This document shows, in pieces, positions 8,674 through 45,376 of a stretch of 64,000 bases of DNA. Position 1 is the stretch's first letter, and each line of letters opens with the position of its first letter. A program made the position numbers and the translations under genes. The notes beneath the pieces were generated by a model. That model searched no databases. It worked only from the letters and a program-made list of their open reading frames with translations, and had not been told where the DNA came from. Source of the DNA: an uncultured Bdellovibrionales bacterium (GTDB taxonomy: Bacteria > Bdellovibrionota_C > UBA2361 > SZUA-149 > CAZDIO01); NCBI GenBank assembly GCA_964505555.1, contig CAZDIO010000102.1, forward strand, positions 13,355 to 77,354, in the 5' to 3' direction.

Positions 8674-9963
8674 ATGATATTCTCCTTACTTCCGATGTTT
8701 GTTGTCACCACCACTTCTGTCGTAATGCTCTTGGTATGGGGGCTTTCGCAACGTTTCAACCTGCACTCATTGCACAACATTTTTATCCTTATTTGGGCAT
8801 ACTATACGTTTTGTGTCCCGTTGGATTTGATGTTTTTCCCTGAATTACTTTCTCCCTCAGTCGGTGGCATGCCTAATCTCGGAGATGAAACCTTCGGAGA
8901 TGAGATAGGAATTACATTTTTTCATTATCTGATACTTGGCGGCTCATTTTTTTTAATCTACCACTTTCTGCCGGGTGGATCTCATAAAAACCCCAGGTGG
9001 AAATTATTGGAACTTCCTCTTCCCCCTCTCTGGGTGGTGATTACTTTAAATACGTTGGTCTTCGTAGCCTCAGTGGTGCTCATCGGCAGCCTTTCGCGAA
9101 GCGAAGCCGCGCTCTTGGGTGCGACAAATGTTTCATATAAGTTTTTTACGATCCTCACTACATTCGTTCAGGCGCTTAATATTATTTATGTTCATGAGAT
9201 TAACGACCGACGGAAAGCGCTTCTCATAGTACTTGCTTCATTTCTTTTTACACTCGCCACTGGTGGTCGAACGACTTTTGTAATTTTCATGCTCATCTTT
9301 CTCATCCGTTATGAAATACCGATTTCACGAGTTGGGCGAATTGTAACCGGAGTACTCGCCATTTGTTTTGCTGCTTTTTGGAAATTAATCTGGAGCAGTT
9401 TATCCCAGATGATTTTTTTTGGAGGCTCGGCTTCTGCGCTTTTAGACTTACCCTCTGTGACGGTTTCTAACTTTGAGGGGATCGGTCCCTATGAAATATC
9501 GGTATCCCTTCTTCGTCACTGGGGCTCCTCCCCTTGGTTACTGGGAGAGACCTATATCGTTACTCCGTTGCAATTATTGTTCCCACGTTTTCTTAGTTGG
9601 GAGCCGGTACAAACGCTTGCCGAATATTATGGTCAGTTATTCTCGCCAAACTTTGTTGCTCTTGGTGGTGGTATTGGTTTTTCAGCCGTTGGCGAGGCTT
9701 GGCTTAATTTTTCCCACTTTGGGCCTTTTTTACTCGGCTTGGTTTTTGGTTATATCGCTAAATATTATGACAGCCACCCGCGAGGATTGAGTTATTGGAT
9801 AGTCGTTATTGTTTTCTGTAGATTGTTTCGTTCAGATTTTGCTTCCATTTTTAAGAGTTGGTTGCTGATCTTGGGAATCTCTATACTTGTGGTAACAGTA
9901 TGTCTAAGGCTGCTTGGTGAGTTGCAGGCCAAAATGCTGACACAATGCAAGGAAAACCATTGA
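8674..9963 (+). CDS. Polytopic membrane protein, candidate O-antigen/oligosaccharide repeat-unit polymerase (Wzy-like)
   Basis: 429 aa with at least 10 predicted TM segments. Encoded divergently from the GT4 gene inside the glycan cluster. No motif-level confirmation. Confidence 0.35.
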   Translation: MIFSLLPMFVVTTTSVVMLLVWGLSQRFNLHSLHNIFILIWAYYTFCVPLDLMFFPELLSPSVGGMPNLGDETFGDEIGITFFHYLILGGSFFLIYHFLPGGSHKNPRWKLLELPLPPLWVVITLNTLVFVASVVLIGSLSRSEAALLGATNVSYKFFTILTTFVQALNIIYVHEINDRRKALLIVLASFLFTLATGGRTTFVIFMLIFLIRYEIPISRVGRIVTGVLAICFAAFWKLIWSSLSQMIFFGGSASALLDLPSVTVSNFEGIGPYEISVSLLRHWGSSPWLLGETYIVTPLQLLFPRFLSWEPVQTLAEYYGQLFSPNFVALGGGIGFSAVGEAWLNFSHFGPFLLGLVFGYIAKYYDSHPRGLSYWIVVIVFCRLFRSDFASIFKSWLLILGISILVVTVCLRLLGELQAKMLTQCKENH

Positions 9964-10010: not shown

Positions 10011-11399
10011 ATGAGATACAGCACACGAATAATATTTCTTCTCTTTCTCTGCTACGTCGTGCTTTTTTGGCTCAATGGCTTAGGCTTTCGTCGGAAAGGA
10101 TACGTCCAAGATGATGCTCTTCAACATGTAATGTATGCTTACAATTTAGTTCATCACGGAGTAATCTCAGATGTACAATGCAGTAAGGAACCGGCCCCAG
10201 AAGCATGCAACCGCTCCCCAAGCGCCTATCGTGGTCCAGGCTATCCCTTCTTTCTCGCTCTCAACATTGCATTGAATCCCAAACTGCGCGCGCTTGACGA
10301 ACAACAGATTGTAAAACCTGAATTCCTTAATCCCCTTAGAAACAGTGAACTGTTGCTTCTCTGGCTCACTTCGATTTTCATTTATAAAATTGTATTTATT
10401 TTGACACAAAGAAGATTTCCCGCATTTGTTGCGCTCCTGAGCGTTGGTTTTAATCCGATTCTCCTAGACTATCAGAATGAATTTTATTCGGAAAATTTCG
10501 GCGCCCTTTTGGTTACAATCCTTTCTTACGCACTGCTCATGGCATACAGAAGTGGCCGATATAGATATTATGGATTGAGTGGATTTCTTACCGGTTGTTT
10601 GACATTAACGATCCCCATTTTTTACTACCTCCCATGGCTTTTTATAATCGTTTCCTTTGGTTTATCTCGAAGCAAAAAGATTCATTATCAACAATGGCTG
10701 AAAACTTCAGGGATATTTTTGATTTGTTTCGCGGGTGTTGTGCTTCCTTGGATGGTGCGTAACTACCTCCATTTTGATCGGTTCTACATTACAGAGCGTG
10801 CTGGAGCGATGCTCAACGTTCGTGCGGAGAAAGATCTCATGAATAAAAAAGAGTTTTTTGCGGCGTTTTGTTATTGGAGCAACTGTTCTTTTTTACAGAG
10901 TTTAAGAAAACCATTTGAGAATGATCCCGCATTTCATCGCCTTATTCGCGGCAATCCAGATAGTTTCTATCGAACCGGAAGAGTTCGCCGATTGGAACTA
11001 AACCGTGAGCATGGTCCGGTGGTGGCAGACAAACTATTACTTCGAGAAGCAGTAGAAAAAATTACTTCGCATCCATTTCGACATCTTGCAGTAACCCTCC
11101 CGGTGATGTTTCGTGGCATGGGAATGCAAAGCTGTGGACTAGATTTTATTCTTTTTGGAAGCACATTACTGTTGTTCCTTGCTTCAATTGCGAAACGTGA
11201 TGGACAACTTTTTATTCTCTTATTACCAACCGCTTACTGCTATGCTTTTTATAGCTTGGTAACTTACCATCTCCCACGGTACAGCCTACCACTTTTGCCA
11301 ATGTTTTGGGTCGCCACAATTGTGGCTCTTTATCGTCTGACAAAGAGAATGGAAACTAACAAAGACGATATGTTCCAAAGCTCTCTTACCAACACTTAG
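10011..11399 (+). CDS. Polytopic membrane protein, GT-C-like (ArnT/PMT-type) candidate glycosyltransferase
   Basis: 462 aa with many N-terminal TM helices and a short conserved acidic loop near the N-terminus (YVQDDALQHV). Assignment is by architecture only. Confidence 0.3.
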   Translation: MRYSTRIIFLLFLCYVVLFWLNGLGFRRKGYVQDDALQHVMYAYNLVHHGVISDVQCSKEPAPEACNRSPSAYRGPGYPFFLALNIALNPKLRALDEQQIVKPEFLNPLRNSELLLLWLTSIFIYKIVFILTQRRFPAFVALLSVGFNPILLDYQNEFYSENFGALLVTILSYALLMAYRSGRYRYYGLSGFLTGCLTLTIPIFYYLPWLFIIVSFGLSRSKKIHYQQWLKTSGIFLICFAGVVLPWMVRNYLHFDRFYITERAGAMLNVRAEKDLMNKKEFFAAFCYWSNCSFLQSLRKPFENDPAFHRLIRGNPDSFYRTGRVRRLELNREHGPVVADKLLLREAVEKITSHPFRHLAVTLPVMFRGMGMQSCGLDFILFGSTLLLFLASIAKRDGQLFILLLPTAYCYAFYSLVTYHLPRYSLPLLPMFWVATIVALYRLTKRMETNKDDMFQSSLTNT

Positions 11400-14803: not shown

Positions 14804-15564
14804 ATTCTCAAGCTGCGGCAGTTGCATCTCCCGAATTGAACGCTCAAGCTCGACCGCGAGTCGCAGTCATTATTCCTGTCTATAATGAAGAAAAAGTTAT
14901 CGGACGAGTTCTTGATGCCATTCCACGAGAACATGTTGATGTGGTGATCGTGGTTGATGATGGTTCAACTGATTCGACCCCAACTGAATTAGAAAAAAGA
15001 GATGTTCAGGTCATCCGTCACGAGAAACAACTCTTTATCGGGGCGGCTATTCGAGATGGACTTCGGAAGGCAAAAGAGCTGGGAATAGACATTGTGTGCG
15101 TTTTTGCCGGGAACGGAAAGGACGATCCTCAAGAATTACCATTATTACTTCGACCGATCATCGAACAAGGTTATGATTTTGTCCAAGGCTCTCGCTATCT
15201 TCCGGGTGGGCGATCCGGAAAAATGCCTCGTCATCGTCGGATCGTAACAAAGGTTTACCCACTTCTTGTGAGATTTTTCACCGGAGTCAAGATTACTGAT
15301 GGAACTAATGGATTTCGGGCTTATCGCTTACAACTCCTTGATGATCCGGAGATAGATCTCGATCAGCCATGGCTCAGTGAGTGCCTAGAGTATTATTTTT
15401 CACTCAGAGTGTTTCAGCAAGGGTATTCAGTGACCGAAGTCCCTGTTTCAAAAATCTATCCTGATACTGCTGTGTATAGTGAGTATACAAAAGTTCGTCC
15501 CGGAATTGGATGGCTCAATCGCCTTAAACCACTTTTTTTTCTTGGTTTCCGCCTGAGAAAGTAA
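14791..15564 (+). CDS. Glycosyltransferase family 2 (DPM1-like polyprenyl-phosphate sugar synthase type)
   Basis: RVAVIIPVYNEEKVIGRVLDAIP...VVIVVDDGSTDST, with DxD-type motifs. Confidence 0.85.
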   Translation: MPPINSQAAAVASPELNAQARPRVAVIIPVYNEEKVIGRVLDAIPREHVDVVIVVDDGSTDSTPTELEKRDVQVIRHEKQLFIGAAIRDGLRKAKELGIDIVCVFAGNGKDDPQELPLLLRPIIEQGYDFVQGSRYLPGGRSGKMPRHRRIVTKVYPLLVRFFTGVKITDGTNGFRAYRLQLLDDPEIDLDQPWLSECLEYYFSLRVFQQGYSVTEVPVSKIYPDTAVYSEYTKVRPGIGWLNRLKPLFFLGFRLRK

Positions 15565-16825
15565 GCTCGCCTCGAATATCTTCGCGAAGGCTGATGAGAA
15601 AAATAACGGCGGCACCAACAAAAAAGACTGCACTTCCAGCCAGCGTTGCATATGCTGCTCCCTCCGTGGAAGTTTCAGGGATAAGGAGCAGTCCGATAGA
15701 AACGTTTATGATCAGCGATATTCCTGCAAGAACTCCTTGTATTCGAAGACGCCTCATGATGGTAATTGCTGCGTTGAGATATCCATAGAGATACATCATT
15801 GCAGCAGCAACCATGAAGATTCCGAGAATCTTTCCTGAGTGTGCAAGATCTTTTCCATAAATGAGCGACAATAGCTGATCCCCATAGGCAAAGCTGATTA
15901 CAATACCAACCGCACCGATACTGAGTGCAAATAATAACAACCCCCTTAGAAAAAATATGAACCGCTTTCGAGAAGCATGATACGTTTGAGCAAGCGGAGT
16001 AAGTGCCGATGCAGTTAACGCCTCACAGAGCGTCACGCCGATGTACATAAAGTAGCTCACCGCCGTATAGATTCCAAGCGAACCAAGACCTTGCAAACGC
16101 TCTAATAAATATCGAGGAGCATTCGTGTTAAGAGAAACCAGAAGTCGTCTTGCACCCAGAGGCGAGGCTTTTTTTGCAAGTAAAAAGAGCTGTTGATATC
16201 TAATTGGCTGAGCAAGTTCTCTCCATGAAAGATTTTCAGCAAGAAACGTGCGCGCACGTTTTGAAATGAAATACAGCACGATTCCACGCGAAAGAATGAG
16301 AAAAAACAACGCTGATATTAAATCACTAAAAAAATACATCCCAATCAAAATAGAAAGAACACTGAGTACTCCATTGATGATTTGAAACTTCGCAACTTCT
16401 CCTAAGCGTTCCTTGCGCTGAAAAAGTGCTTCGACCATATCGTGGAAGGAATCAACAACCTTTACCAAAGCAACAAGAAGTATCACCTGCCACTGCTCCA
16501 CATCTTTGGTGTAAGTAAAACCAACACCCATAATGACAATAAAGCAGATGATCGAGGTAAAGAAGCGGAGATGAAAATACGTACACGGTTCATTGTCACG
16601 ATTAATATCCGTAACCAGTAAATCCCGGGCACTAAAATTAAAAAATGCAAAAAATGGTGCGCTCAATGCAAGTGCGAGCCCAAAAAGGCCCACCATTTCT
16701 ACATCCCCTAACCACATCAGAATAACCAATATCATCCACTGCGAAAACGAGTAGAATACGTTTCCGATGAGCATCCAGACAAAATTTGACCCGATGCGGC
16801 TTTGTAGAGAAAACCACCTAACCAT
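15524..16825 (-). CDS. Wzx-like oligosaccharide flippase (MOP superfamily polysaccharide biosynthesis protein)
   Basis: 433 aa with about 12 TM segments. The periodicity is typical of polysaccharide-biosynthesis (Wzx) proteins. Confidence 0.65.
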   Translation of the reverse strand: MVRWFSLQSRIGSNFVWMLIGNVFYSFSQWMILVILMWLGDVEMVGLFGLALALSAPFFAFFNFSARDLLVTDINRDNEPCTYFHLRFFTSIICFIVIMGVGFTYTKDVEQWQVILLVALVKVVDSFHDMVEALFQRKERLGEVAKFQIINGVLSVLSILIGMYFFSDLISALFFLILSRGIVLYFISKRARTFLAENLSWRELAQPIRYQQLFLLAKKASPLGARRLLVSLNTNAPRYLLERLQGLGSLGIYTAVSYFMYIGVTLCEALTASALTPLAQTYHASRKRFIFFLRGLLLFALSIGAVGIVISFAYGDQLLSLIYGKDLAHSGKILGIFMVAAAMMYLYGYLNAAITIMRRLRIQGVLAGISLIINVSIGLLLIPETSTEGAAYATLAGSAVFFVGAAVIFLISLREDIRGELTFSGGNQEKKVV

Positions 16826-30395: not shown

Positions 30396-31259
30396 CTACT
30401 GCAGCAACGTCAACGCCAAGGCTGGCTGTTGATTTGCTTGTGCTAATACTGAAGCACTTGCTTGCTGGAGAATATTTAGTCGCGTAAGTTCCGCCGCTTC
30501 GAACGCTACGTCAACGTCACGGATTCGACTTTCTGCAGCGAGGAAGTTTTCTCGAGCCACTTGCAAGTTACTAATCGCCACATTCAGCCGACTCTCGGTA
30601 GAACCCAATGTTCCTCGAGACGCTGTCAAACTTCCGATGGCGAGGTTAATAGCATCAAGAGCTGATCGTGCAGAGATCTGAGATTCATTCGCCGTTGCCG
30701 CCAAGATCGAAAACAACGGTATAGAACTCCCCTCAACTGCCAACCCAATTGATGCCAAGGTAGCAGAAACTGCAGAGTAGGATACCTGTGAGGTAGTCTG
30801 CCCATCAAACCCTACCTGAAACACCGTCTGTGCTCCTCCAGAGAGAAGGTTTACACCGTTAAATTCAGTTGTTAAGGCGATTCGCTCAATTTCGCTTGAG
30901 AGCGCGAGAAACTCTAAATGCAACGCAGAACGTTGGGTGTTACTAAATACACCGTTGGCTGATTGTTCAGCAAGCTCTGCAAGCCTTGTTAATACGTTTC
31001 CGATCTGCTCCATCGCACCGTCAGTAATGGAGATCATCGAAACACCATCGCTTGCGTTTCGTATGGCGACAGTAGCTACTCGAGAATCTGAACGCAGCTG
31101 ATCGGCGATCGCAAGTCCAGCAGCATCGTCTGATGCTTTGGTAATTCGCAAACCGGACGACAACCGCTCATAGGCTTTCTGTAAACGATCCGTTGTTGAA
31201 CTTAAGTTTCTCTGCGCAGTAAGCGAGGAAACGTTAGTCCGTATATTAATTGTACCCAT
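30396..31259 (-). CDS. fliC: Flagellin
   Basis: 287 aa. The N-terminal D0/D1 region (INIRTNVSSLTAQRNLSSTTDRLQKAYERLSSGLRITKASDDAAGLAIADQL) and the C-terminal helix (ESRIRDVDVAFEAAELTRLNILQQASASVLAQANQQP) are the canonical flagellin termini. Confidence 0.9.
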   Translation of the reverse strand: MGTINIRTNVSSLTAQRNLSSTTDRLQKAYERLSSGLRITKASDDAAGLAIADQLRSDSRVATVAIRNASDGVSMISITDGAMEQIGNVLTRLAELAEQSANGVFSNTQRSALHLEFLALSSEIERIALTTEFNGVNLLSGGAQTVFQVGFDGQTTSQVSYSAVSATLASIGLAVEGSSIPLFSILAATANESQISARSALDAINLAIGSLTASRGTLGSTESRLNVAISNLQVARENFLAAESRIRDVDVAFEAAELTRLNILQQASASVLAQANQQPALALTLLQ

Positions 31260-36657: not shown

Positions 36658-38235
36658 CTAAACGCTACGATTCCTTTCTCGTTTTCTTTTCCAAGTTTCA
36701 AAGTCTACTACCGCAATTTTTTTTGCAAGCTCCTCACGAACACATCCTTCAACCGCTTCATGAAGACTTCTTCGATCAAGAGCGGTTTTTAAGCAGTTCA
36801 TCTTCTTTTCAACCTGATCATAGAGGTTTGAAAGAGACTCAGAAGAGAGTGTTTTTCGATAGCGATCGACTTCGGTAGAGAGGTATTCCTGATACTCTTT
36901 TTTCTCAACTGGATTGGCCTCTCCCCGCCCGCTAGAGATTGGGGCTTTTGGAAAGTCCCGCCCAGTATTTTTAAGGATTTTCTCTTCAAAACTCCGGGGA
37001 ATAATGAATTTATGTGGAGTTTCTACTGCCCGATAGAGAAAACCTACCCGATTTTTTGAGACTTTCGTATCATTTGTTTGCACAAGAAAATCGTAATAGG
37101 AGATGATTTTATCAACTTGTAAAAGTTCTGCGGCGTTTTTTTCACTGAGCAGCCGTTTTGCTTGCGAGAGATGAATGCCTCGCGAAAGCAGAGCTTCAAT
37201 GGCTCCTTGTCGTTGTGATTCTAGATCAGTAGAACTGCGTTGGGAGGAATCTTTTTGAAAAACAGGGGGCGAAGAAAGGATAAAGCTTCCTTGCTGCGTG
37301 TGATTTCTAGGAAGAGGGCTCTCTGTTTGCTGGAGATGTTTTTGAGATACGATCTCTTTTCCGGAATGAAAGCGCACAACGGTCTCTACGCCCCTACCTG
37401 CAAACTCATAACTTGAGAGAAACCCAAGCGCTTTTAACTCCTCGCACGCTGGTTCAATTTGTTGCTTAATCTGGGAGATGTATTGATAACTTCGAGAAAG
37501 TCCTAACTTCTCAAAGGCAAAGGTAACAAGTGGTTTTTCAATACTTGATTTGTAGTAAAAATGCTTATCAAGATACCGGTAGAGCCTTCGACTTACAGCA
37601 CTTCGAAGTGAGAAATAAAGGGTTAAATCAAGCTTTTTTATAAACCCTGATTTAAAAGAATGAAAAAGTGCCTCACTCCAAATAAAATAACTCTTTGAAG
37701 CCTCAGCCCCAGAGAGGGCTTTGTTCCCTCGCCCATCGTTTATTTCGTAGGCATCGATAATTCCGAAATTTCTTGTTTGATAGGCTTTTGAAGCATTATC
37801 AAAAAACGCATTTGCTGCCCGAATTCGAACCCCGCTTAAGCGATCAAGTGATTTTGTAAGGCGGGAGTAGCTTCGCCCTTCTGTGGTCCAGCGTAAGATT
37901 CCTAAAAGCTCATACCGGGTAAAATATACCTTTCGGTTTCGAAACCCTTGATCCATCGTTAACCGCATCAAGCCAAGAAGGACATCATCATCCGTAGCGG
38001 TGGGGAGTCCAAACTTGTCTGCCCCGGTAATAATCCACTGGCGTTCAATCACCTCCCCACTGGGGAGCCGTTGGTTGTCACGAAACTCAAGGGTTTTTAC
38101 CTTTGAGTTTGTGCGTGTCGAGAGAACCGCGAGGGGAAACTCTGCAAGGTTCATCTCATCACGTGAGGTAAGCACTACCTCGGATGAGGAGACTTCACGA
38201 TCTTCGGCTCTTTGTTGGTAGAGGGTTTGCTGCAT
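36658..38235 (-). CDS. Replication initiator protein A (RepA/RPA-family)-like protein
   Basis: The N-terminal region NLAEFPLAVLSTRTNSKVKTLEFRDNQRLPSGEVIERQWIITGADKFGLPTATDDDVLLGLMRLT resembles plasmid RepA-family initiators. It faces a 900-bp non-coding region followed by parAB. Confidence 0.5.
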   Translation of the reverse strand: MQQTLYQQRAEDREVSSSEVVLTSRDEMNLAEFPLAVLSTRTNSKVKTLEFRDNQRLPSGEVIERQWIITGADKFGLPTATDDDVLLGLMRLTMDQGFRNRKVYFTRYELLGILRWTTEGRSYSRLTKSLDRLSGVRIRAANAFFDNASKAYQTRNFGIIDAYEINDGRGNKALSGAEASKSYFIWSEALFHSFKSGFIKKLDLTLYFSLRSAVSRRLYRYLDKHFYYKSSIEKPLVTFAFEKLGLSRSYQYISQIKQQIEPACEELKALGFLSSYEFAGRGVETVVRFHSGKEIVSQKHLQQTESPLPRNHTQQGSFILSSPPVFQKDSSQRSSTDLESQRQGAIEALLSRGIHLSQAKRLLSEKNAAELLQVDKIISYYDFLVQTNDTKVSKNRVGFLYRAVETPHKFIIPRSFEEKILKNTGRDFPKAPISSGRGEANPVEKKEYQEYLSTEVDRYRKTLSSESLSNLYDQVEKKMNCLKTALDRRSLHEAVEGCVREELAKKIAVVDFETWKRKRERNRSV

Positions 38236-39130
38236 GAAAAAAAATGAAACAAAAAAATTTTAAATTAACTTCAAGTCGTTTGTTATTTTGGTACAACGTA
38301 CATCATAGTTCTTCAACAAGAAGTTTTTTTATAAGTACGTACGTTAGGAGAGAAATTATTCAATCTTTCTAGTAAGTTAAGCCAGAAAATTTCTTTCGAT
38401 TCCCGAATCTTTTGGGCTCAGATCACGATGGACTTGAAGTCAATTCACTTGAGCACTTATCTCATTTCATGAGATTTTTATTCTCCTGCCTAACTTTCTT
38501 ACTTCGACTCTCGACATTGTGAAACCAAAAGCGCGAGATTTTTATGTAAGGCTCTCTGGAGCCTCTAACATGAGTCAGATAGCCAAACATTCCGGAGAAA
38601 ACGGTAGGTGGTCACGGTCATTAAGTTAGTTCCTGTCCATAAAAGCCAATTTTGAGTCCAAGGTCGATTGAACGGCCACTACTTCTAAACTTACTCTGTG
38701 GTTTTATAAAATCTTCTTTCAGACCCTTAATGACCGTGGGTAAGAAACTCTATTTTAGTAAAGTCTCTTAGTTCATTACTCGAACCCTTATTTCAATACA
38801 CGCCTATTTGACCATTTTTGGTTATTCCATTTCACGAACAGCAGCCAAACAAAAACCACAAGATATTCTAACATATTGAAATTATTAATATAATCAGATA
38901 TTCGTGGTTTAATTGACCTCCAAAGATCGCATTATTCTGGGAATGTTCGAGCTTCGAAATAAGTACTGATCACGTTTATAAGCGAGCTTTTGAAAGATGA
39001 TTATTTCAAAGCACGCTACTTTTTGGCCACTAGGTAGGTTTCTTTACTGTTTGGAAGCTTTAGTTTAAACCAGTTATTGTTTAATTTAACCTCTGCCAAA
39101 ATCTCAACTCTTGAGTAACGAAGCTGTAAG
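38236..39130. promoter_or_regulatory. About 900-bp AT-rich non-coding region between the RepA-like gene and parA. Candidate replication origin / partition site region.
   Basis: No ORF of 60 aa or more on either strand. Contains the inverted repeat ggtcacggtcattaag (38611-38626) / cttaatgaccgtgggtaag (38726-38744) and several A/T tracts. Confidence 0.4.
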
Positions 39131-39913
39131 GTGGCCATGGCAAAAGTCTTTGCAATAGTGAATCAAAAGGGGGGAGTTGGAAAAACTACCACCGCTGCAA
39201 ATTTGGCCGCCGCGCTATCTGAGCGAGGTCAAAAAGTGCTTGTTATTGATCTTGATGCTCAAGCAAATCTCTCTGCTCATTTTGGAAGTTCCGTAGATGA
39301 TCAGAGTGAGCAGCTTACAATGTATGATGTGCTCAGGCACAACGCCCCGATTGAAAAAGCAATAATAAACCTCTCTTCGAACTTAAGTATCGTTCCTGCA
39401 AGCCTCCTACTAAGTGCTGCAGATTTAGAGCTTGGTGGTGTTATCGGTCGTGAGTTACTTCTTAAAAAAGCTCTTCAACCGGTAATTGATGACTATGATT
39501 ACACGATCATTGATTGCCCACCCTCACTGGGGATGCTCTCCCTCAATGGGCTTGTTGCTGCTTCACGAGTTATCGTTCCTGTTCAAAGTGAGTTTTTAGC
39601 CCTTCACGGCGTAAGGCAGCTTCTTGATACGATTGACCAGGTACGAAGTGCCTACAACCCCTTACTTGCTGTGGGTGGAGTTCTTCTCTGTCTTCATGAT
39701 TCAAGAAGGAGACTGGCGCGGAGTGTTGCCGATACGGTGCGCGAATATTTTGGAGATCTTGTTTTTGAAACTGTCATTCGCACAAACGTTGCCCTTGCTG
39801 AAGCACCTGCCCAGGGGGACTCAATTTTTCAATACGACCGCCGCTCAAGCGGTGCTGAAGATTATGCTAGCCTTGCAGAGGAGATACTAAGCCGTGGCAA
39901 AAAAGAAGGTTAA
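39131..39913 (+). CDS. parA: ParA/Soj-family partition ATPase
   Basis: Deviant Walker A KVFAIVNQKGGVGKTTTAANLAAAL. 260 aa. Confidence 0.9.
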   Translation: MAMAKVFAIVNQKGGVGKTTTAANLAAALSERGQKVLVIDLDAQANLSAHFGSSVDDQSEQLTMYDVLRHNAPIEKAIINLSSNLSIVPASLLLSAADLELGGVIGRELLLKKALQPVIDDYDYTIIDCPPSLGMLSLNGLVAASRVIVPVQSEFLALHGVRQLLDTIDQVRSAYNPLLAVGGVLLCLHDSRRRLARSVADTVREYFGDLVFETVIRTNVALAEAPAQGDSIFQYDRRSSGAEDYASLAEEILSRGKKEG

Positions 39914-40814
39914 ATTCAGTGTAAACCCACTTCTTGGGGGACCAAGTCTTGCATCACGAGCAAAGATGGGGAGCCCTTATCGGGAGCTTTTAATCGACGA
40001 GATCGATTTTGATCCTGATCAACCGCGACGAGTATTTAATGAAGAGCGACTTCAAGAGCTCGCTGATTCAATTAAAGAACACGGAATCATCTCACCAATA
40101 CTTGTTAAAGTAACAGAAGGGGGAACCTATAAGCTTGTATCTGGAGAGAGAAGACTTCGTGCCTCAAAAATTGCTGGATTAGAATCGATCCCCGCAGTTA
40201 TTGAAGACGATGATAAAAGTAGTGATGTAACCCTTCCTAAGCAGCTTGTAGAAAATCTCCAACGAGAAGATCTCACCGTAATGGAGAGGGCGATCGCTAT
40301 TGGCCAACTACGAGATGCTTACAAATTGAGCATTCGTGAGATCTCCTCAAAGCTTTCCATTTCAAAAGGACTCGTTCAGAGAAGCCTTGAAGTTCTCGAT
40401 CTCCCAGACGATCTTCAAGCAGCGTTAATAAACGGTGCCTCAGAGACGAAGATTCTCGTTTTAGCGAAAGTTTCGAATCGTGAATTGAGAAAAGAATTTA
40501 TCGCTCAACTTGATAATTTCACCCGAGCACAACTTGAAGAAGAGGTAGATCGGGTTACGACACTCTTAAATGGCGACAAAGAAGAGGTGTACCACGGTGG
40601 TACACCTCGTAGTCGAAAAAATGGAAGAAATAAACTTTCCCCTCAAGATGAGCAGTTAATTAATGATTTAAAAAACAAACTAGGAACAAGAGTTTCTTTA
40701 ATGCGCAGTCGTGGCAAAGAGGGGCAGGGGAAGCTGATGATCGAGTTCTATTCAGATAACGATCTAAGCGAGATCTTTCGACGACTTTGTCGAACCGCTA
40801 GCGATTCTCTTTAA
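39894..40814 (+). CDS. parB: ParB/Spo0J-family partition protein
   Basis: ParB N-terminal box ISPILVKVTEGGTYKLVSGERRLRASKIAGLESIPAVI and a central HTH. It overlaps the parA stop. Confidence 0.85.
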   Translation: MAKKKVKFSVNPLLGGPSLASRAKMGSPYRELLIDEIDFDPDQPRRVFNEERLQELADSIKEHGIISPILVKVTEGGTYKLVSGERRLRASKIAGLESIPAVIEDDDKSSDVTLPKQLVENLQREDLTVMERAIAIGQLRDAYKLSIREISSKLSISKGLVQRSLEVLDLPDDLQAALINGASETKILVLAKVSNRELRKEFIAQLDNFTRAQLEEEVDRVTTLLNGDKEEVYHGGTPRSRKNGRNKLSPQDEQLINDLKNKLGTRVSLMRSRGKEGQGKLMIEFYSDNDLSEIFRRLCRTASDSL

Positions 40815-40888: not shown

Positions 40889-41716
40889 TTGTCCGTAAAT
40901 TTCTCTAATAATTACAGTCAGTTACAAGAGATTATTGAATCTGCTGTTGTCAGTTCTCTTGAAAACAGTGGTCCACTCTCTGAAGTAATGAGCTATGCCG
41001 TGCTCTCTCCGGGAAAGCGAGTTCGACCAGTCTTAACCCTTGCTGTTTCAGAACTTATAGAGGTGGATAAGAAAAGGTTGATTCCTTTTAGTCTCGCAGT
41101 TGAGTTTATTCACTCAGCGTCACTGATCCATGATGATCTTCCCGCGCTTGATAATGATACTTTAAGACGGGGAAAGCCAACCGCGCATGTTCGATACGGA
41201 GAAGCGTTAGCACTTCTTGGAGGGGATGCGCTTTTTGGAAAAGCATTTCAAATCGTCTCCTCCTCTGGAGAGGATCCAGAGATGATTACCAAACTAAATT
41301 CCCTTCTTAGCCAGACCCTTTTTGATCTGTGTGAGGGACAGGCGATGGAGTTTGCGTATGACAAAGAGGAGATGCTGAATGAAGAGGACATTCGAAATAT
41401 TCATCTGAAAAAAACAGCCTCATTGCTCTCTGCAAGCGCTGCTGCTCCAGGGCTGTTTTTTGACAAAAACCCAAGTCTTTACGGCATCTTAGCCGAGTTT
41501 GGCAGTTGTCTCGGGCTTCTCTTTCAGATTACAGATGATATCCTTGATCAAGATGAAGAAAAGAAGACAACCTACATCCATGCGATCGGACTTGAGGGAA
41601 GTAAGGACCGGGCAAGAGAGGAGCACAGTAAGCTCCTTCAAATATTAAAACCCTTCGGTGAAAGGGCTTGGTTTCTTAGAGAGCTTTGTGACTATGTTCT
41701 CAATCGACAACAGTAA
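40889..41716 (+). CDS. Polyprenyl diphosphate synthase (trans-IPPS; FPP/GGPP synthase-like)
   Basis: First Asp-rich motif LIHDDLPALDNDTLRRGKPTAH and second motif QITDDILD. Confidence 0.85.
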   Translation: MSVNFSNNYSQLQEIIESAVVSSLENSGPLSEVMSYAVLSPGKRVRPVLTLAVSELIEVDKKRLIPFSLAVEFIHSASLIHDDLPALDNDTLRRGKPTAHVRYGEALALLGGDALFGKAFQIVSSSGEDPEMITKLNSLLSQTLFDLCEGQAMEFAYDKEEMLNEEDIRNIHLKKTASLLSASAAAPGLFFDKNPSLYGILAEFGSCLGLLFQITDDILDQDEEKKTTYIHAIGLEGSKDRAREEHSKLLQILKPFGERAWFLRELCDYVLNRQQ

Positions 41717-44020: not shown

Positions 44021-45376
44021 ATGATCGTTACTGATTCACCATTTCGCACGCAATATAGCGCCAATAACGTTGCAATTCGAAACGGAGCAACAAGTACTAC
44101 GCCGGCGCAATTTAGTAATCTTTCTTTTCTTCGATCGACACCACCTTCTTTACCTTCAAGCAATCTCCTTGCCCCATCAAGTAGCGGAGGATTTGTTTCT
44201 CAAGTGCAGTCGATGCTGCAGCAAGTTTCGGTGCTGATGGATCTCATCGGTGCCGCAAGACAATCAGATCAAAGTGCTGGGGTTAGTCTCCTCGATGGGG
44301 CGAAACTCTTTTCTCAAAATGTTTCTCAGGAGCTTTTTAACCTTCAGACAAGAGGAGGTATCGGAGGGGTTTTTGATGCTGTTCCGACCTCTATAGATAG
44401 TCTTGGTACTGCCGCTCAACAGTACGTTCTTGGGAACCTCAAGCGAGAGTTTTTTGACGCAGTTGGTGAGGCGTTTGGGGTGGATGTTTCACAGCTTTCT
44501 GTAACAGATCTTGCCAATTTGGCTTATGAAAGCGTTTTTGGAGAGGGAACATCGCTCTCTAGTACCCTCTCAGATGGGGTGGCAGGAATCTTCTCCGGTC
44601 AGGATCCCTTTGTAGCAGGAGAACTTAGTGGAGAAATTGGTGGAGAAATAAGCACTGAAGTAGGCGGGGCAACTTCAGGAATTGGCCAATTTACAGGCGC
44701 TTTAGCAACCGCGTATTCTCTCTATGGAATAATTAATGACTGGGGAAAGAGCACCCCAGCCATGGGTGCGATGCGAGGTGCTACGGCTGGAGCGTACATC
44801 GGGAGTATTATTCCAGGAGTTGGAACTCTTATCGGAGGTGCCATCGGTGGGGTTGCGGGGGCGATCTCTGGATTGTTTCATAGTGGGAAGCATAAAAACC
44901 AGATTCAACGCGATCAGGTTCGAGAGTTTTTAAGAAATGCCCAAATTATCGATTCAGATAACTCCCTTCAGTTAGCAAATGGTGAACGTTTTGATATCGG
45001 AAAAGATGGAGGTGCTCGCTATCTTGGACTTGACGGAGTTGAGAGACGACCCTACGTGACTGACCCTTCAAATCCACTTACCGCTGAGGCGATAGGGCTT
45101 GTAAATCCGTTAGCAATAATTCTCACCGGAGGTGATCCTGGACTTTCTTCAGCTTTTGCAGGGTATTTTAGTAATGCCATCGTCAGTAACGCACAAGATC
45201 TCGAAGGCGTCCGCCAAAATGCCTTGGCGATATTCTCAAAATTTCAGGTTACCCCAGAGCAATTGATCGCTGGCTTAGAAAATCTTACTGCCTCCGGCAA
45301 AATCCCCCCAGAAGATTTTGCTGCATACGCAAACGGGGTAAGAACTCTCCTTGAAGGGTTTTCTTCACCTTCATAA
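44021..45376 (+). CDS. Hypothetical Gly/Ser-rich protein with a central glycine-zipper hydrophobic segment
   Basis: 451 aa. The central segment GATAGAYIGSIIPGVGTLIGGAIGGVAGAISGLF has a GxxxG-zipper pattern. Flanked by family A repeats on both sides. Confidence 0.3.
   Translation: MIVTDSPFRTQYSANNVAIRNGATSTTPAQFSNLSFLRSTPPSLPSSNLLAPSSSGGFVSQVQSMLQQVSVLMDLIGAARQSDQSAGVSLLDGAKLFSQNVSQELFNLQTRGGIGGVFDAVPTSIDSLGTAAQQYVLGNLKREFFDAVGEAFGVDVSQLSVTDLANLAYESVFGEGTSLSSTLSDGVAGIFSGQDPFVAGELSGEIGGEISTEVGGATSGIGQFTGALATAYSLYGIINDWGKSTPAMGAMRGATAGAYIGSIIPGVGTLIGGAIGGVAGAISGLFHSGKHKNQIQRDQVREFLRNAQIIDSDNSLQLANGERFDIGKDGGARYLGLDGVERRPYVTDPSNPLTAEAIGLVNPLAIILTGGDPGLSSAFAGYFSNAIVSNAQDLEGVRQNALAIFSKFQVTPEQLIAGLENLTASGKIPPEDFAAYANGVRTLLEGFSSPS

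What the first reader, a model, noticed from the sequence alone, without database searches (positions are those of the whole stretch)
36658..40814. RepA-like initiator + 900-bp non-coding region + parAB: the signature of a plasmid, chromid or secondary replicon amid housekeeping genes
A 525-aa protein with a RepA/RPA-family-like N-terminal region is encoded divergently from parA-parB across about 900 bp of AT-rich DNA with no ORF. That region contains a 16/19-nt inverted repeat pair (38611-38626 / 38726-38744). Chromosomal parAB normally sits next to gidAB, rnpA or dnaA, not next to a Rep protein. The surrounding genes (icd, a polyprenyl synthase gene, hemD, hemB, pgl, serA) are core metabolism. 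This would fit a chromid or megaplasmid carrying essential genes, or an integrated plasmid.
Basis: partly seen in the sequence, partly recalled or inferred. Interest (0 to 1): 0.7.

Follow-up and report, generated by a model that had tools for sequence, protein, structure and literature searches.

The report
Plasmid-type chromosome origin: RepA, iterons, parAB
This is a plasmid-style replication origin (RepA initiator, about ten 20-nt repeats partly in 22-bp phase, partition genes) inherited vertically among housekeeping genes across a whole uncultured branch of Bdellovibrionota, so it starts replication of a megabase-sized chromosome that is either an unrecognised second chromosome or a main chromosome that no longer uses a DnaA-type origin.

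Summary
A 525-aa PF10134 (RPA) initiator at 36658-38235 (-) faces parA-parB (39131-40814, +) across 895 bp of ORF-free DNA with 35% GC.

The spacer holds ten copies of a 20-nt asymmetric repeat (consensus TTAttTCaAttCACGA), five of them in 22-bp phase. The window's cumulative GC-skew minimum lies there.

The same module (repA, iterons, parA-parB, FPP synthase) occurs once per genome in 80 of 80 inspected assemblies, and 117 GTDB species carry a RepA relative. All are uncultured Bdellovibrionota/Oligoflexia MAGs with 31-58% GC, on contigs up to 1.87 Mb. The skew minimum falls within 2 kb of the spacer in 32 of 40 loci.

The model of RepA has the tandem winged-helix fold of RctB, RepE and pi. 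No DnaA boxes, no dnaA within 10 kb, and no canonical parS were found.

It is therefore an active, vertically inherited iteron-type origin of a large essential replicon, not an integrated plasmid. I could not test whether these genomes also carry dnaA. A chromid (about 0.5) and a main chromosome with a displaced oriC (about 0.35-0.4) both remain open. Neither has been described for this phylum in the literature I could search.

The parts
36658..38235 (-). repA: 525-aa replication initiator. N-terminal tandem winged-helix DNA-binding region (about res 24-290), disordered linker (295-333), conserved all-helical C-terminal domain (335-525).
38236..38388 (.). AT-rich spacer (68-85% AT over most of it, 62% at the array edge) between repA and the iteron array. 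Candidate DNA-unwinding element plus repA promoter (promoter-like site 38286-38257 on the - strand). Holds a diverged copy of the clade-wide element AAGATTGTTTAACTAACTAAAA at about 38350-38385.
   Evidence: The function is inferred, not shown.
38389..38516 (+). Iteron array A: five direct 20-nt repeats at 38389, 38411, 38433, 38455 and 38497. Spacing is 22, 22, 22 and 42 bp.
   Evidence: PWM scores 10.2-15.9 bits. 22 bp is the dominant spacing clade-wide (182 neighbour pairs).
38613..38738 (.).
   Evidence: Absent from all related spacers. Role unknown.
38766..38839 (+). Iteron group B: three direct repeats at 38766, 38786 and 38820.
   Evidence: PWM scores 12.4-16.8 bits.
38856..38895 (.). 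Second AT-rich patch (80% AT).
38945..39018 (.). Pair of iterons in inverted orientation (38945-38964 on -, 38999-39018 on +) upstream of parA. Relatives carry inverted iteron pairs or a CACGTG-centred iteron palindrome at the same place.
   Evidence: A role as operator or centromere is inferred.
39131..39913 (+). parA: Soj-type Walker ATPase, 260 aa.
   Evidence: Pfam AAA_31/CbiA. 205 bits to the 'ParA family protein' chain 8ray_B and 177 bits to the 'segregation protein' chain 1wcv, which I take to be Thermus Soj.
39894..40814 (+). parB: ParB_N (GERRLRAS motif) + HTH + C-terminal dimerisation domain, 306 aa. The recognition helix is non-canonical.
40476..40495 (-). Best iteron match of the whole window (20.9 bits), inside parB (codons for NRELRKE). 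Conserved at the same codon position in L002, L007 and L037.
   Evidence: It may be a regulatory RepA site or a coding coincidence.
40889..41716 (+). FPP synthase (ispA-like), part of the conserved origin-proximal synteny.
   Evidence: NCBIfam FPPsyn. Found downstream of parB in 55 of 81 loci.

Best explanation
The locus is the active, bidirectional, iteron-type replication origin and partition locus of a large, vertically inherited replicon. That replicon is at least 1.87 Mb in one relative. It belongs to an uncultured clade of Bdellovibrionota/Oligoflexia.

Proposed mechanism. Shown by analogy only: RepA monomers bind through their two winged-helix domains to the 20-nt asymmetric iterons, which sit in 22-bp (two helical turns) direct arrays. 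Inferred: the resulting nucleoprotein complex melts the adjacent AT-rich stretch between the array and repA. The conserved C-terminal helical domain then helps recruit the replicative helicase. Forks leave in both directions, which produces the GC-skew switch. Inferred: inverted iteron pairs at the parA promoter, and scattered single iterons on the parB side, give autoregulation and titration or handcuffing control. This would resemble the inc iterons of F and P1 and the extra RctB sites of Vibrio Chr2. ParA (Soj-type) and a ParB with a non-canonical recognition helix segregate the origin region through a non-canonical, still unidentified centromere, possibly the iterons themselves.

I cannot tell whether the replicon is a second chromosome beside a DnaA chromosome (my lean, about 0.5) or the only chromosome (about 0.35-0.4).

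For: Iterons. Ten PWM hits of 10 bits or more lie in the 895-bp spacer, against 8 in the other 63 kb. Clade-wide there are 687 hits in 72 spacers (12.3/kb) against 0.33/kb outside. The modal spacing is 22 bp, and 556 hits are on one strand against 131 on the other. Phased runs occur in 67 of 80 genome loci and in 37 of 47 independent metagenome loci. They occur in 0 of 11 loci with more distant RepA homologues. Planctomycete plasmids with related RepA carry 22-bp-phased repeats just upstream of repA and no adjacent parAB, so the repeats go with RepA.

Origin activity. The window's cumulative GC-skew minimum is at 37-39 kb. In 45 species the parAB side is negative in 45 of 45 and the repA side positive in 40 of 45. 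The skew minimum lies within 1 kb of the spacer in 25 of 40 loci and within 2 kb in 32 of 40. A side effect of 0.03-0.045 remains after gene strand is separated out. 78% and 57% of flanking coding sequence is co-oriented with the forks.

Vertical inheritance and size. There is one locus per assembly in 80 of 80 assemblies, and 117 species carry a relative. Synteny is conserved. Locus GC ranges from 31 to 58%. RepA-N identity correlates with ParB (r 0.79) and IspA (r 0.74), and RepA-N is the most conserved protein segment of the locus. Contigs reach 1.87 Mb, 709 kb and 322 kb. Flanks encode icd, hemB/D, FPP synthase, a folC-like ligase, a class-I W/Y-family tRNA synthetase (PF00579), AddAB-like nuclease/helicase, menaquinone genes and flagellar genes.
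Against: There is no experimental evidence, and all genomes are MAGs. The PWM was trained on the same spacers it was first scored on, although it was validated on independent loci. The locus on the 1.87-Mb contig (L037) shows no GC skew. Gene orientation on the repA side is only weakly biased. The protein that binds the repeats is assigned by analogy. In Deinococcus ChrII and its megaplasmid, similar repeats upstream of parAB were reported to bind ParB and DnaA. No centromere was identified. tRNA genes are nearly absent from the flanks.
Confidence: 0.85

Rival explanations
1. Secondary chromosome (chromid). The RepA/iteron/ParAB module maintains a second essential replicon that co-exists with a DnaA-oriC main chromosome carrying canonical ParB and parS, as in Vibrio Chr2 or Deinococcus ChrII.
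For: The architecture (initiator gene divergent from parAB across an approximately 0.9-kb iteron origin) is that of known chromids. RPA-family Rep genes occur on the 412-kb D. radiodurans replicon, which I take to be ChrII, and on Deinococcus/Thermus megaplasmids. The ParB recognition helix is non-canonical, and no canonical parS lies within 10 kb in 81 loci or in the 64-kb window. That is what is expected of a replicon that must avoid cross-talk with a main chromosome. The closest non-clade ParAB relatives sit next to T4SS genes or an integrase. tRNAs are nearly absent from the flanks. This has strong precedent.
Against: A dnaA-bearing partner replicon was not shown. The replicon is at least 1.87 Mb, which is large for a secondary replicon in a phylum whose cultured members have genomes of roughly 3-4 Mb (my own knowledge). 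Conservation across a clade this deep (IspA mean identity 33%, GC 31-58%) would, to my knowledge, exceed that of known chromids. The flanks are dense in core metabolism.
Confidence: 0.5
2. Main-chromosome origin. A plasmid-derived RepA/iteron/ParAB module has displaced DnaA-oriC as the origin of the only chromosome in this clade. dnaA is either lost or retained for other roles.
For: The contig sizes, deep vertical inheritance and housekeeping flanks listed above apply here too. RepA-N is conserved like an essential core protein, at 70% mean identity and above ParA. DnaA boxes are not enriched in the spacers: 16 with at most 1 mismatch against 17.8 +/- 4.1 in shuffles, and none in the window's spacer. 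No dnaA lies within 10 kb in 81 loci or in the 64-kb window. ParA is Soj-type.
Against: I know of no precedent in free-living bacteria, so the prior is low. Absence of dnaA from the genomes was not tested. The non-canonical ParB and the missing canonical parS are more simply explained by a secondary replicon. The 1.87-Mb contig is labelled contig '-2' of its bin, so other large contigs may exist.
Confidence: 0.37
3. Integrated plasmid or ICE remnant in an ordinary chromosome. The Rep/par genes are passengers and replication starts elsewhere at oriC.
For: Chromosomal RPA homologues in Planctomycetes have been interpreted this way. RepA's nearest characterised relatives are plasmid proteins.
Against: The module is single-copy and at the same syntenic position in at least 70 species. 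No integrase or transfer genes appear among the recurrent flank families. The GC-skew minimum and gene-orientation switch lie at the spacer. Iteron arrays and the RepA DNA-binding domain are under strong conservation.
Confidence: 0.05
4. Ordinary chromosomal soj/spo0J next to an unrelated DNA-binding regulator, with the repeats being its operator sites.
For: ParA and ParB are Soj/Spo0J-like in sequence.
Against: The protein passes the PF10134 cut-off and has the Rep tandem-WH fold. It comes with 22-bp phased arrays of 5-8 repeats next to an AT-rich tract, and the skew switch is there. parAB is not in the usual rsmG/mnmG context. Canonical parS is absent.
Confidence: 0.02

Closest known systems
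Vibrio cholerae chromosome 2 origin (ori2, RctB, parAB2)
   Different: There is no sequence homology: RctB is its own family, while this protein is PF10134. Iterons here are 20 nt at 22-bp phase rather than methylated 11/12-mers. No DnaA box is present. ParA here is a short Soj-type protein. By my own knowledge, ParA2 is the long plasmid type. The clade is a different phylum, and no partner DnaA chromosome has been shown.
RPA-family (PF10134) plasmid initiators, e.g. Planctomycetes plasmids pISOP01 and pEP7_04, and pBTK45
   Same: Same Pfam family, at 31-34% identity over residues about 22-417. They carry 22-bp-phased direct repeats immediately upstream of repA. By my own alignment, the pEP7_04 repeat matches the clade iteron at 11 of 18 positions. 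The family is described as iteron-associated plasmid initiators.
   Different: Those are 24-130-kb plasmids with patchy distribution. Here the module lies among housekeeping genes on Mb-scale contigs. It is single-copy, syntenic and co-diverging with the host genes in at least 80 species, and it carries a replication-type GC-skew switch.
Deinococcus radiodurans chromosome II and megaplasmid cis elements (cisII, cisMP)
   Same: These are secondary essential replicons encoding RPA-family Rep proteins at about 24% identity. They carry 8-11 direct 18-bp repeats upstream of parAB, reported to have both origin and centromere function.
   Different: The Deinococcus repeats were reported to bind DnaA and ParB and to overlap DnaA boxes. 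Here DnaA boxes are not enriched. The Rep gene here is adjacent to the repeats. The relationship is distant.
Classical iteron plasmids (F RepE, R6K pi, pPS10 RepA, RK2 TrfA)
   Different: There is an extra, conserved helical C-terminal domain of about 190 aa. No DnaA boxes are present. The context is chromosomal.

Membership tests
Iteron-type Rep initiator, Pfam RPA (PF10134) | Sequence match to the family model above the curated cut-off | tested here: met
   67.5 bits against a cut-off of 27, E 1.6e-18, residues 25-226. All 120 listed homologues carry PF10134.
Iteron-type Rep initiator, Pfam RPA (PF10134) | Tandem winged-helix fold as in RepE, pi and RctB domains 2-3 | tested here: met
Iteron-type Rep initiator, Pfam RPA (PF10134) | Cognate direct repeats (iterons) in helical phase next to the gene | tested here: met
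   Ten sites lie in the window spacer, five of them at 22-bp phase. 687 sites lie in 72 spacers, about 37-fold enriched, with a 22-bp modal spacing. Validated on independent loci.
Iteron-type Rep initiator, Pfam RPA (PF10134) | AT-rich unwinding element adjacent to the iterons | tested here: inconclusive
   38236-38388 is mostly 68-85% AT and lies between the array and repA. A conserved AT-rich element is at the same place in 39 relatives. Unwinding was not tested.
Iteron-type Rep initiator, Pfam RPA (PF10134) | Rep binds the iterons and drives replication of the linked origin | not testable with these tools
   Needs EMSA or footprinting and a mini-replicon assay.
DnaA-oriC chromosomal origin | Cluster of DnaA boxes (TTATCCACA-like) | tested here: not met
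   None with at most 1 mismatch in the window spacer. 16 in 72 spacers against 17.8 +/- 4.1 in shuffles.
DnaA-oriC chromosomal origin | dnaA (usually with dnaN) adjacent to the origin | tested here: not met
This says nothing about the rest of the genomes.
Chromosomal ParABS (Soj/Spo0J with canonical parS) | Soj-type ParA and a ParB with N-terminal CTP-binding (by my knowledge of the GERRxR motif), HTH and dimerisation domains | tested here: met
   GERRLRAS is present.
Chromosomal ParABS (Soj/Spo0J with canonical parS) | Canonical parS (TGTTTCACGTGAAACA) near parAB | tested here: not met
   0 sites with at most 3 mismatches in the 64-kb window. 0 sites with at most 1 mismatch in 81 loci totalling 1.29 Mb. 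The ParB recognition helix differs from the canonical GKSRxHVxNxLRLL, a motif I quote from memory.
Chromid / secondary chromosome | Plasmid-type replication and partition system | tested here: met
   RepA (PF10134) with iterons and parAB.
Chromid / secondary chromosome | Carries core or housekeeping genes and is conserved across the taxon | tested here: met
   icd, hemB/D, FPP synthase, a folC-like ligase, a class-I W/Y-family tRNA synthetase (PF00579) and others lie in the flanks. Present in 117 species.
Chromid / secondary chromosome | Co-exists with a larger primary chromosome that has dnaA/oriC | not testable with these tools
Integrated plasmid / ICE | Patchy distribution, variable insertion site, integrase or transfer genes, no replication-associated skew switch | tested here: not met
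   One copy at the same syntenic site in the loci examined. No integrase or T4SS among recurrent flank families. The skew minimum is at the spacer.

The most novel reading that the evidence does not exclude
In this uncultured Bdellovibrionota/Oligoflexia clade, the main and only chromosome is replicated from a plasmid-derived RepA/iteron origin. The ancestral DnaA-oriC origin, and the canonical ParB-parS system, have been displaced. As far as I know, this would be the first free-living bacterial lineage whose chromosome initiator is a plasmid-type Rep protein.
Probability: 0.35. Interest if true: 0.93.

Novelty: new variant of a known kind. Interest (0 to 1): 0.72.

Why it matters
DnaA-oriC is regarded as nearly universal for bacterial chromosomes. 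Plasmid-type initiators are known on secondary chromosomes in only a handful of lineages, such as Vibrio, Burkholderia, Rhizobiales and Deinococcus.

Here a Rep/iteron origin is fixed across a deep clade of at least 117 species, in a phylum for which my literature searches found no multipartite genome and no DnaA-independent chromosome.

On the conservative reading, this is a new and unusually ancient chromid family with a fully predictable cis/trans pair: a conserved iteron consensus and a hyper-conserved winged-helix domain. That makes it a clean system for studying how plasmid origins are domesticated. It could also be a ready-made replicon for genetic tools in Bdellovibrionota.

On the bold reading, it is a natural replacement of DnaA-oriC. 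That would bear directly on how essential and irreplaceable the bacterial initiator is.

Both readings are testable with existing public MAGs and metagenome read depth.

Tried and rejected
1. Canonical parS search in the window and in 81 loci: none found. A search for perfect palindromes shared across species also found none. The only recurrent palindrome is two iterons head to head around CACGTG, near parA. The centromere remains unidentified.

2. DnaA boxes and dnaA by tblastn: nothing near the locus.

3. Rfam and tRNA scans of the window: nothing. tRNA scan of 44 loci: 2 genes. This is not informative because the loci are syntenic.

5. The iteron motif as a ParB site rather than a RepA site was considered, because it contains TTCACG and TATTTCA, which resemble parS half-sites. 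Single sites are also scattered on the parB side (169 beyond parB against 24 beyond repA). I judged this less likely. Related plasmids carry 22-bp arrays next to repA without parAB, and several scattered sites sit in conserved codons. It is not excluded.

6. An attempt to show that the locus is orthologous to a main-chromosome par region through the nearest non-clade ParAB. The sister lineage has no RepA, iterons, DnaA or gid genes nearby, and it is partly next to transfer genes. The result is inconclusive.

7. Sequence search of RepA against PDB chains: no hit.

8. Literature searches for a described DnaA-less or multipartite Bdellovibrionota, or for the MAG STL-BDEC1: nothing found.

9. Metagenome contig scan hoping for a near-complete chromosome: the longest contig was 149 kb.

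10. The presence of dnaA elsewhere in the RepA-bearing genomes could not be tested.

Full report
OBSERVATION

The ORF map matches the finding. A 525-aa ORF lies at 36658-38235 (-). parA is at 39131-39913 (+) and overlaps parB at 39894-40814 (+). The spacer is 895 bp with 35.3% GC, against 43.3% for the window, and no frame exceeds 58 codons.

The 525-aa protein matches Pfam PF10134 'Replication initiator protein A' (E 1.6e-18, 67.5 bits, cut-off 27) and weakly TrfA. It has no NCBIfam hit. ParA and ParB carry their usual domains. The flanks encode NADP-isocitrate dehydrogenase, FPP synthase, HemD, HemB, flagellin and a menaquinone decarboxylase. Further out lie flagellar export genes, a SerA-like dehydrogenase and a large glycosylation cluster.

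It is not present in any related spacer.

First, the cumulative GC skew of the 64-kb window has its minimum at 37-39 kb, exactly at the spacer.

Second, the spacer contains ten copies of a 20-nt asymmetric motif. Five are direct copies at 38389, 38411, 38433, 38455 and 38497, spaced 22, 22, 22 and 42 bp. Three more are at 38766, 38786 and 38820. An inverted pair sits at 38945 (-) and 38999 (+) in front of parA. The rest of the window (63 kb) has only eight hits at the same threshold. One of them, the best of all at 20.9 bits, lies inside parB.

Between the phased array and the repA start lies a mostly 68-85% AT stretch.

THE MODULE IS CLADE-WIDE AND VERTICALLY INHERITED

The protein has more than 1000 homologues at 45-70% identity in public data. 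Every named one comes from a MAG labelled Bdellovibrionota, Bdellovibrionales, Oligoflexia or 'Deltaproteobacteria'. Some are on contigs of 1.87 Mb, 322 kb and 274 kb.

A scan of one genome per GTDB species found relatives in 117 species. The 80 loci returned come from 80 different assemblies, so there is one copy each, and all are uncultured.

In every locus with enough upstream DNA, repA is divergent from parA-parB (73 and 70 of 81 loci). FPP synthase follows in 55. A folC-like Mur ligase lies between parB and ispA in 40.

Locus GC ranges from 31 to 58%. Across 41 species the RepA N-terminal domain is the most conserved protein segment of the locus. Its mean pairwise identity is 70%, against ParA 67%, ParB 52% and IspA 33%. 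Its divergence tracks that of ParB (r 0.79) and of the housekeeping neighbour IspA (r 0.74). This is the behaviour of a resident, selected, vertically transmitted gene, not of a mobile element.

THE REPEATS ARE ITERONS

K-mer counting over 72 spacers led to a position weight matrix with consensus ntTTAttTCaAttCACGAta (16.4 bits). It gives 687 hits in the spacers (12.3 per kb) against 0.33 per kb elsewhere in the loci. There are 2 to 15 hits per spacer, with a mode of 10. 556 hits are on one strand and 131 on the other. The neighbour spacing is dominated by 22 bp (182 pairs), then 23, 50, 21, 44 and 45.

Runs of at least three phased copies occur in 67 of 80 genome loci and in 37 of 47 metagenome loci that played no part in building the matrix. 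They occur in none of 11 loci encoding more distant RepA homologues at 33-37% identity.

Two Planctomycetes plasmids encode the closest plasmid relatives of this RepA (31-34% identity). They carry 4 and at least 10 direct repeats at 22-bp phase just upstream of repA, with no parAB nearby. By my own alignment, the pEP7_04 unit matches the clade consensus at 11 of 18 positions. A preprint on Planctomycetes plasmids describes the same association of RPA initiators with iterons, and it cites functional identification of the family in pBTK45.

THE SITE BEHAVES AS AN ORIGIN

In 45 species with at least 5 kb on each side, the parAB side has negative skew in 45 of 45 and the repA side has positive skew in 40 of 45, in the repA-plus orientation. 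The smoothed cumulative minimum falls within 1 kb of the spacer midpoint in 25 of 40 loci and within 2 kb in 32 of 40. By my own estimate, about 10% and 20% would be expected if its position were uniform.

Splitting genes by strand shows a side-specific component of 0.03-0.045 on top of the coding-strand component. The switch is therefore not just a by-product of divergent transcription. Beyond parB, 78% of coding sequence is co-oriented with the outgoing fork. Beyond repA the figure is 57%.

A conserved AT-rich element, AAGATTGTTTAACTAACTAAAA(G/C)TAAG, lies between the array and repA in 39 loci and always points towards repA. It is a candidate unwinding element or repA promoter.

WHAT IT IS NOT

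It is not a DnaA-type oriC. The window spacer has no DnaA box with at most 1 mismatch. The 72 spacers show no enrichment, with 16 boxes against 17.8 +/- 4.1 in shuffles.

It is not an ordinary soj/spo0J locus. Canonical parS is absent from the 64-kb window and from all 81 loci. The ParB recognition helix, SKLSISKGLVQRSLEVLDLP, departs from the canonical GKSRxHVxNxLRLL. I quote that motif from memory.

It is not a recently integrated plasmid, for the reasons of synteny, copy number, co-divergence and skew given above.

THE OPEN QUESTION

I could not determine whether the RepA-bearing genomes also carry dnaA/oriC on another replicon.

Arguments for a chromid:
- The architecture is that of Vibrio Chr2.
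- RPA-family Rep genes occur on the 412-kb D. radiodurans replicon, which I take to be ChrII, and on Deinococcus/Thermus megaplasmids. Repeats upstream of parAB in Deinococcus ChrII and its megaplasmid were reported to act as both origin and centromere.
- The non-canonical ParB and centromere are what a second replicon needs.
- The nearest non-clade ParAB relatives (ParA 50%, ParB 44-49% identity) lack RepA and iterons, and they sit partly beside transfer genes or an integrase.

Arguments for the main chromosome:
- The replicon is at least 1.87 Mb.
- The flanks are dense in core metabolism.
- The clade is very deep.
- RepA-N is as conserved as a core protein.
- No DnaA boxes assist the origin.

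I put the chromid at about 0.5, the main chromosome at about 0.35-0.4, and an inactive relic at 0.05 or less.

COMPARISON AND NOVELTY

The protein is a member of the PF10134 Rep family. The locus works like an iteron plasmid or chromid origin. The closest functional analogue is Vibrio ori2/RctB/ParAB2, and the closest relatives by family are Planctomycetes RPA plasmids.

Four things are new. The module is fixed in a deep, uncultured Bdellovibrionota clade on Mb-scale replicons. It has a clade-wide conserved iteron. It has a Soj-type ParA with a ParB of non-canonical specificity. It has no DnaA boxes. Five literature searches found no description of a multipartite or DnaA-independent genome in this phylum.

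I rate it a new variant of a known kind. A substantial minority probability remains that it is something categorically more surprising.

Noticed in passing
window 40476-40495 (-), inside parB; same codon position in L002, L007, L037: The best iteron match in the window (20.9 bits, TCTTTTCTCAATTCACGATT) lies in the parB coding sequence (NRELRKE). It is conserved in the nearest relatives. It could be a RepA titration or handcuffing site, or a coding coincidence.
   Followed up: partly
loci L026, L049, L052, L058, L062, L065 etc., 0.5-4 kb beyond parB and inside parA: Single full-length iteron-like sites recur at conserved positions in the folC-like gene, in the parB-folC spacer and in parA (codons VLLCLHDS). 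There are 169 hits beyond parB against 24 beyond repA. This is reminiscent of the extra RctB sites or datA-like titration loci.
   Followed up: partly
L005, L023, L011, L015, L010, L012, L016-L018, L081 and others, 20-190 bp upstream of parA: A palindrome made of two iterons head to head around CACGTG (e.g. TTATGTCAGTACACGTGTACTGACATAA) sits at the parA promoter in one sub-clade. The other sub-clade has an inverted iteron pair about 50 bp apart at the same place. This is a candidate RepA-dimer operator or centromere.
   Followed up: partly
39 related loci (e.g. L050, L055, L058), between the iteron array and repA; diverged copy at window about 38350-38385: An almost invariant AT-rich element, (A)TAACATGT...AAGATTGTTTAACTAACTAAAA(G/C)TAAG, is conserved in genomes of 31-58% GC. 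It is a candidate DUE or repA promoter.
   Followed up: partly
window parB residues about 150-170; L144 and L147 ParB: The ParB recognition helix reads ...SKGLVQRSLEVLDLP instead of the canonical KSRxHVxNxLRLL. A RepA-less sister ParAB lineage shares this. No canonical parS was found anywhere nearby, so the true centromere is unknown.
   Followed up: partly
L080 15533-16105, L062 15412-15975 and 8 other loci: A stand-alone gene of about 188 aa combines an RRM_1 RNA-binding domain with a ribosomal protein S18 domain. It is not in an rpsF-ssb-rpsR operon. This fusion is unusual, or it may be an ORF-calling merge.
   Followed up: no
L065 3246-4226 and 13 other loci, about 5 kb beyond parB: A conserved ankyrin-repeat protein of about 305 aa is encoded near the origin in one sub-clade. 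Ankyrin repeats in bacteria often mark host- or prey-interaction proteins.
   Followed up: no
window 956-25436: A roughly 25-kb cluster of sugar-modifying genes lies upstream of the flagellin gene at 30396-31259. It includes three DegT-type aminotransferases, a split transketolase, glycosyltransferases, methyltransferases and an epimerase. It is possibly a flagellin or surface glycosylation island.
   Followed up: no
window 8674-9963, 10011-11399, 15524-16825, 44021-45376: Four long ORFs (429, 462, 433 and 451 aa) have no Pfam match at the thresholds used (E 1e-8 for the first three, 1e-6 for the last).
   Followed up: no
L128-L131, L134, L135, L137, L140 (outgroup RepA loci); repA codons for SRDE: The iteron core TCACGA also occurs in the codons of the invariant SRDEMNLAEFPL motif at the start of the RepA DNA-binding domain. 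This gives one PWM hit 13 nt into each outgroup gene. It is probably coincidence.
   Followed up: no
L144 8570-10001; L145 and L146 equivalent: The RepA-less sister ParAB lineage has a gene-free, AT-rich region of 1.4-1.9 kb upstream of parA. It has a few 22-bp-spaced two-copy repeats and no DnaA boxes. Its function is unknown.
   Followed up: partly
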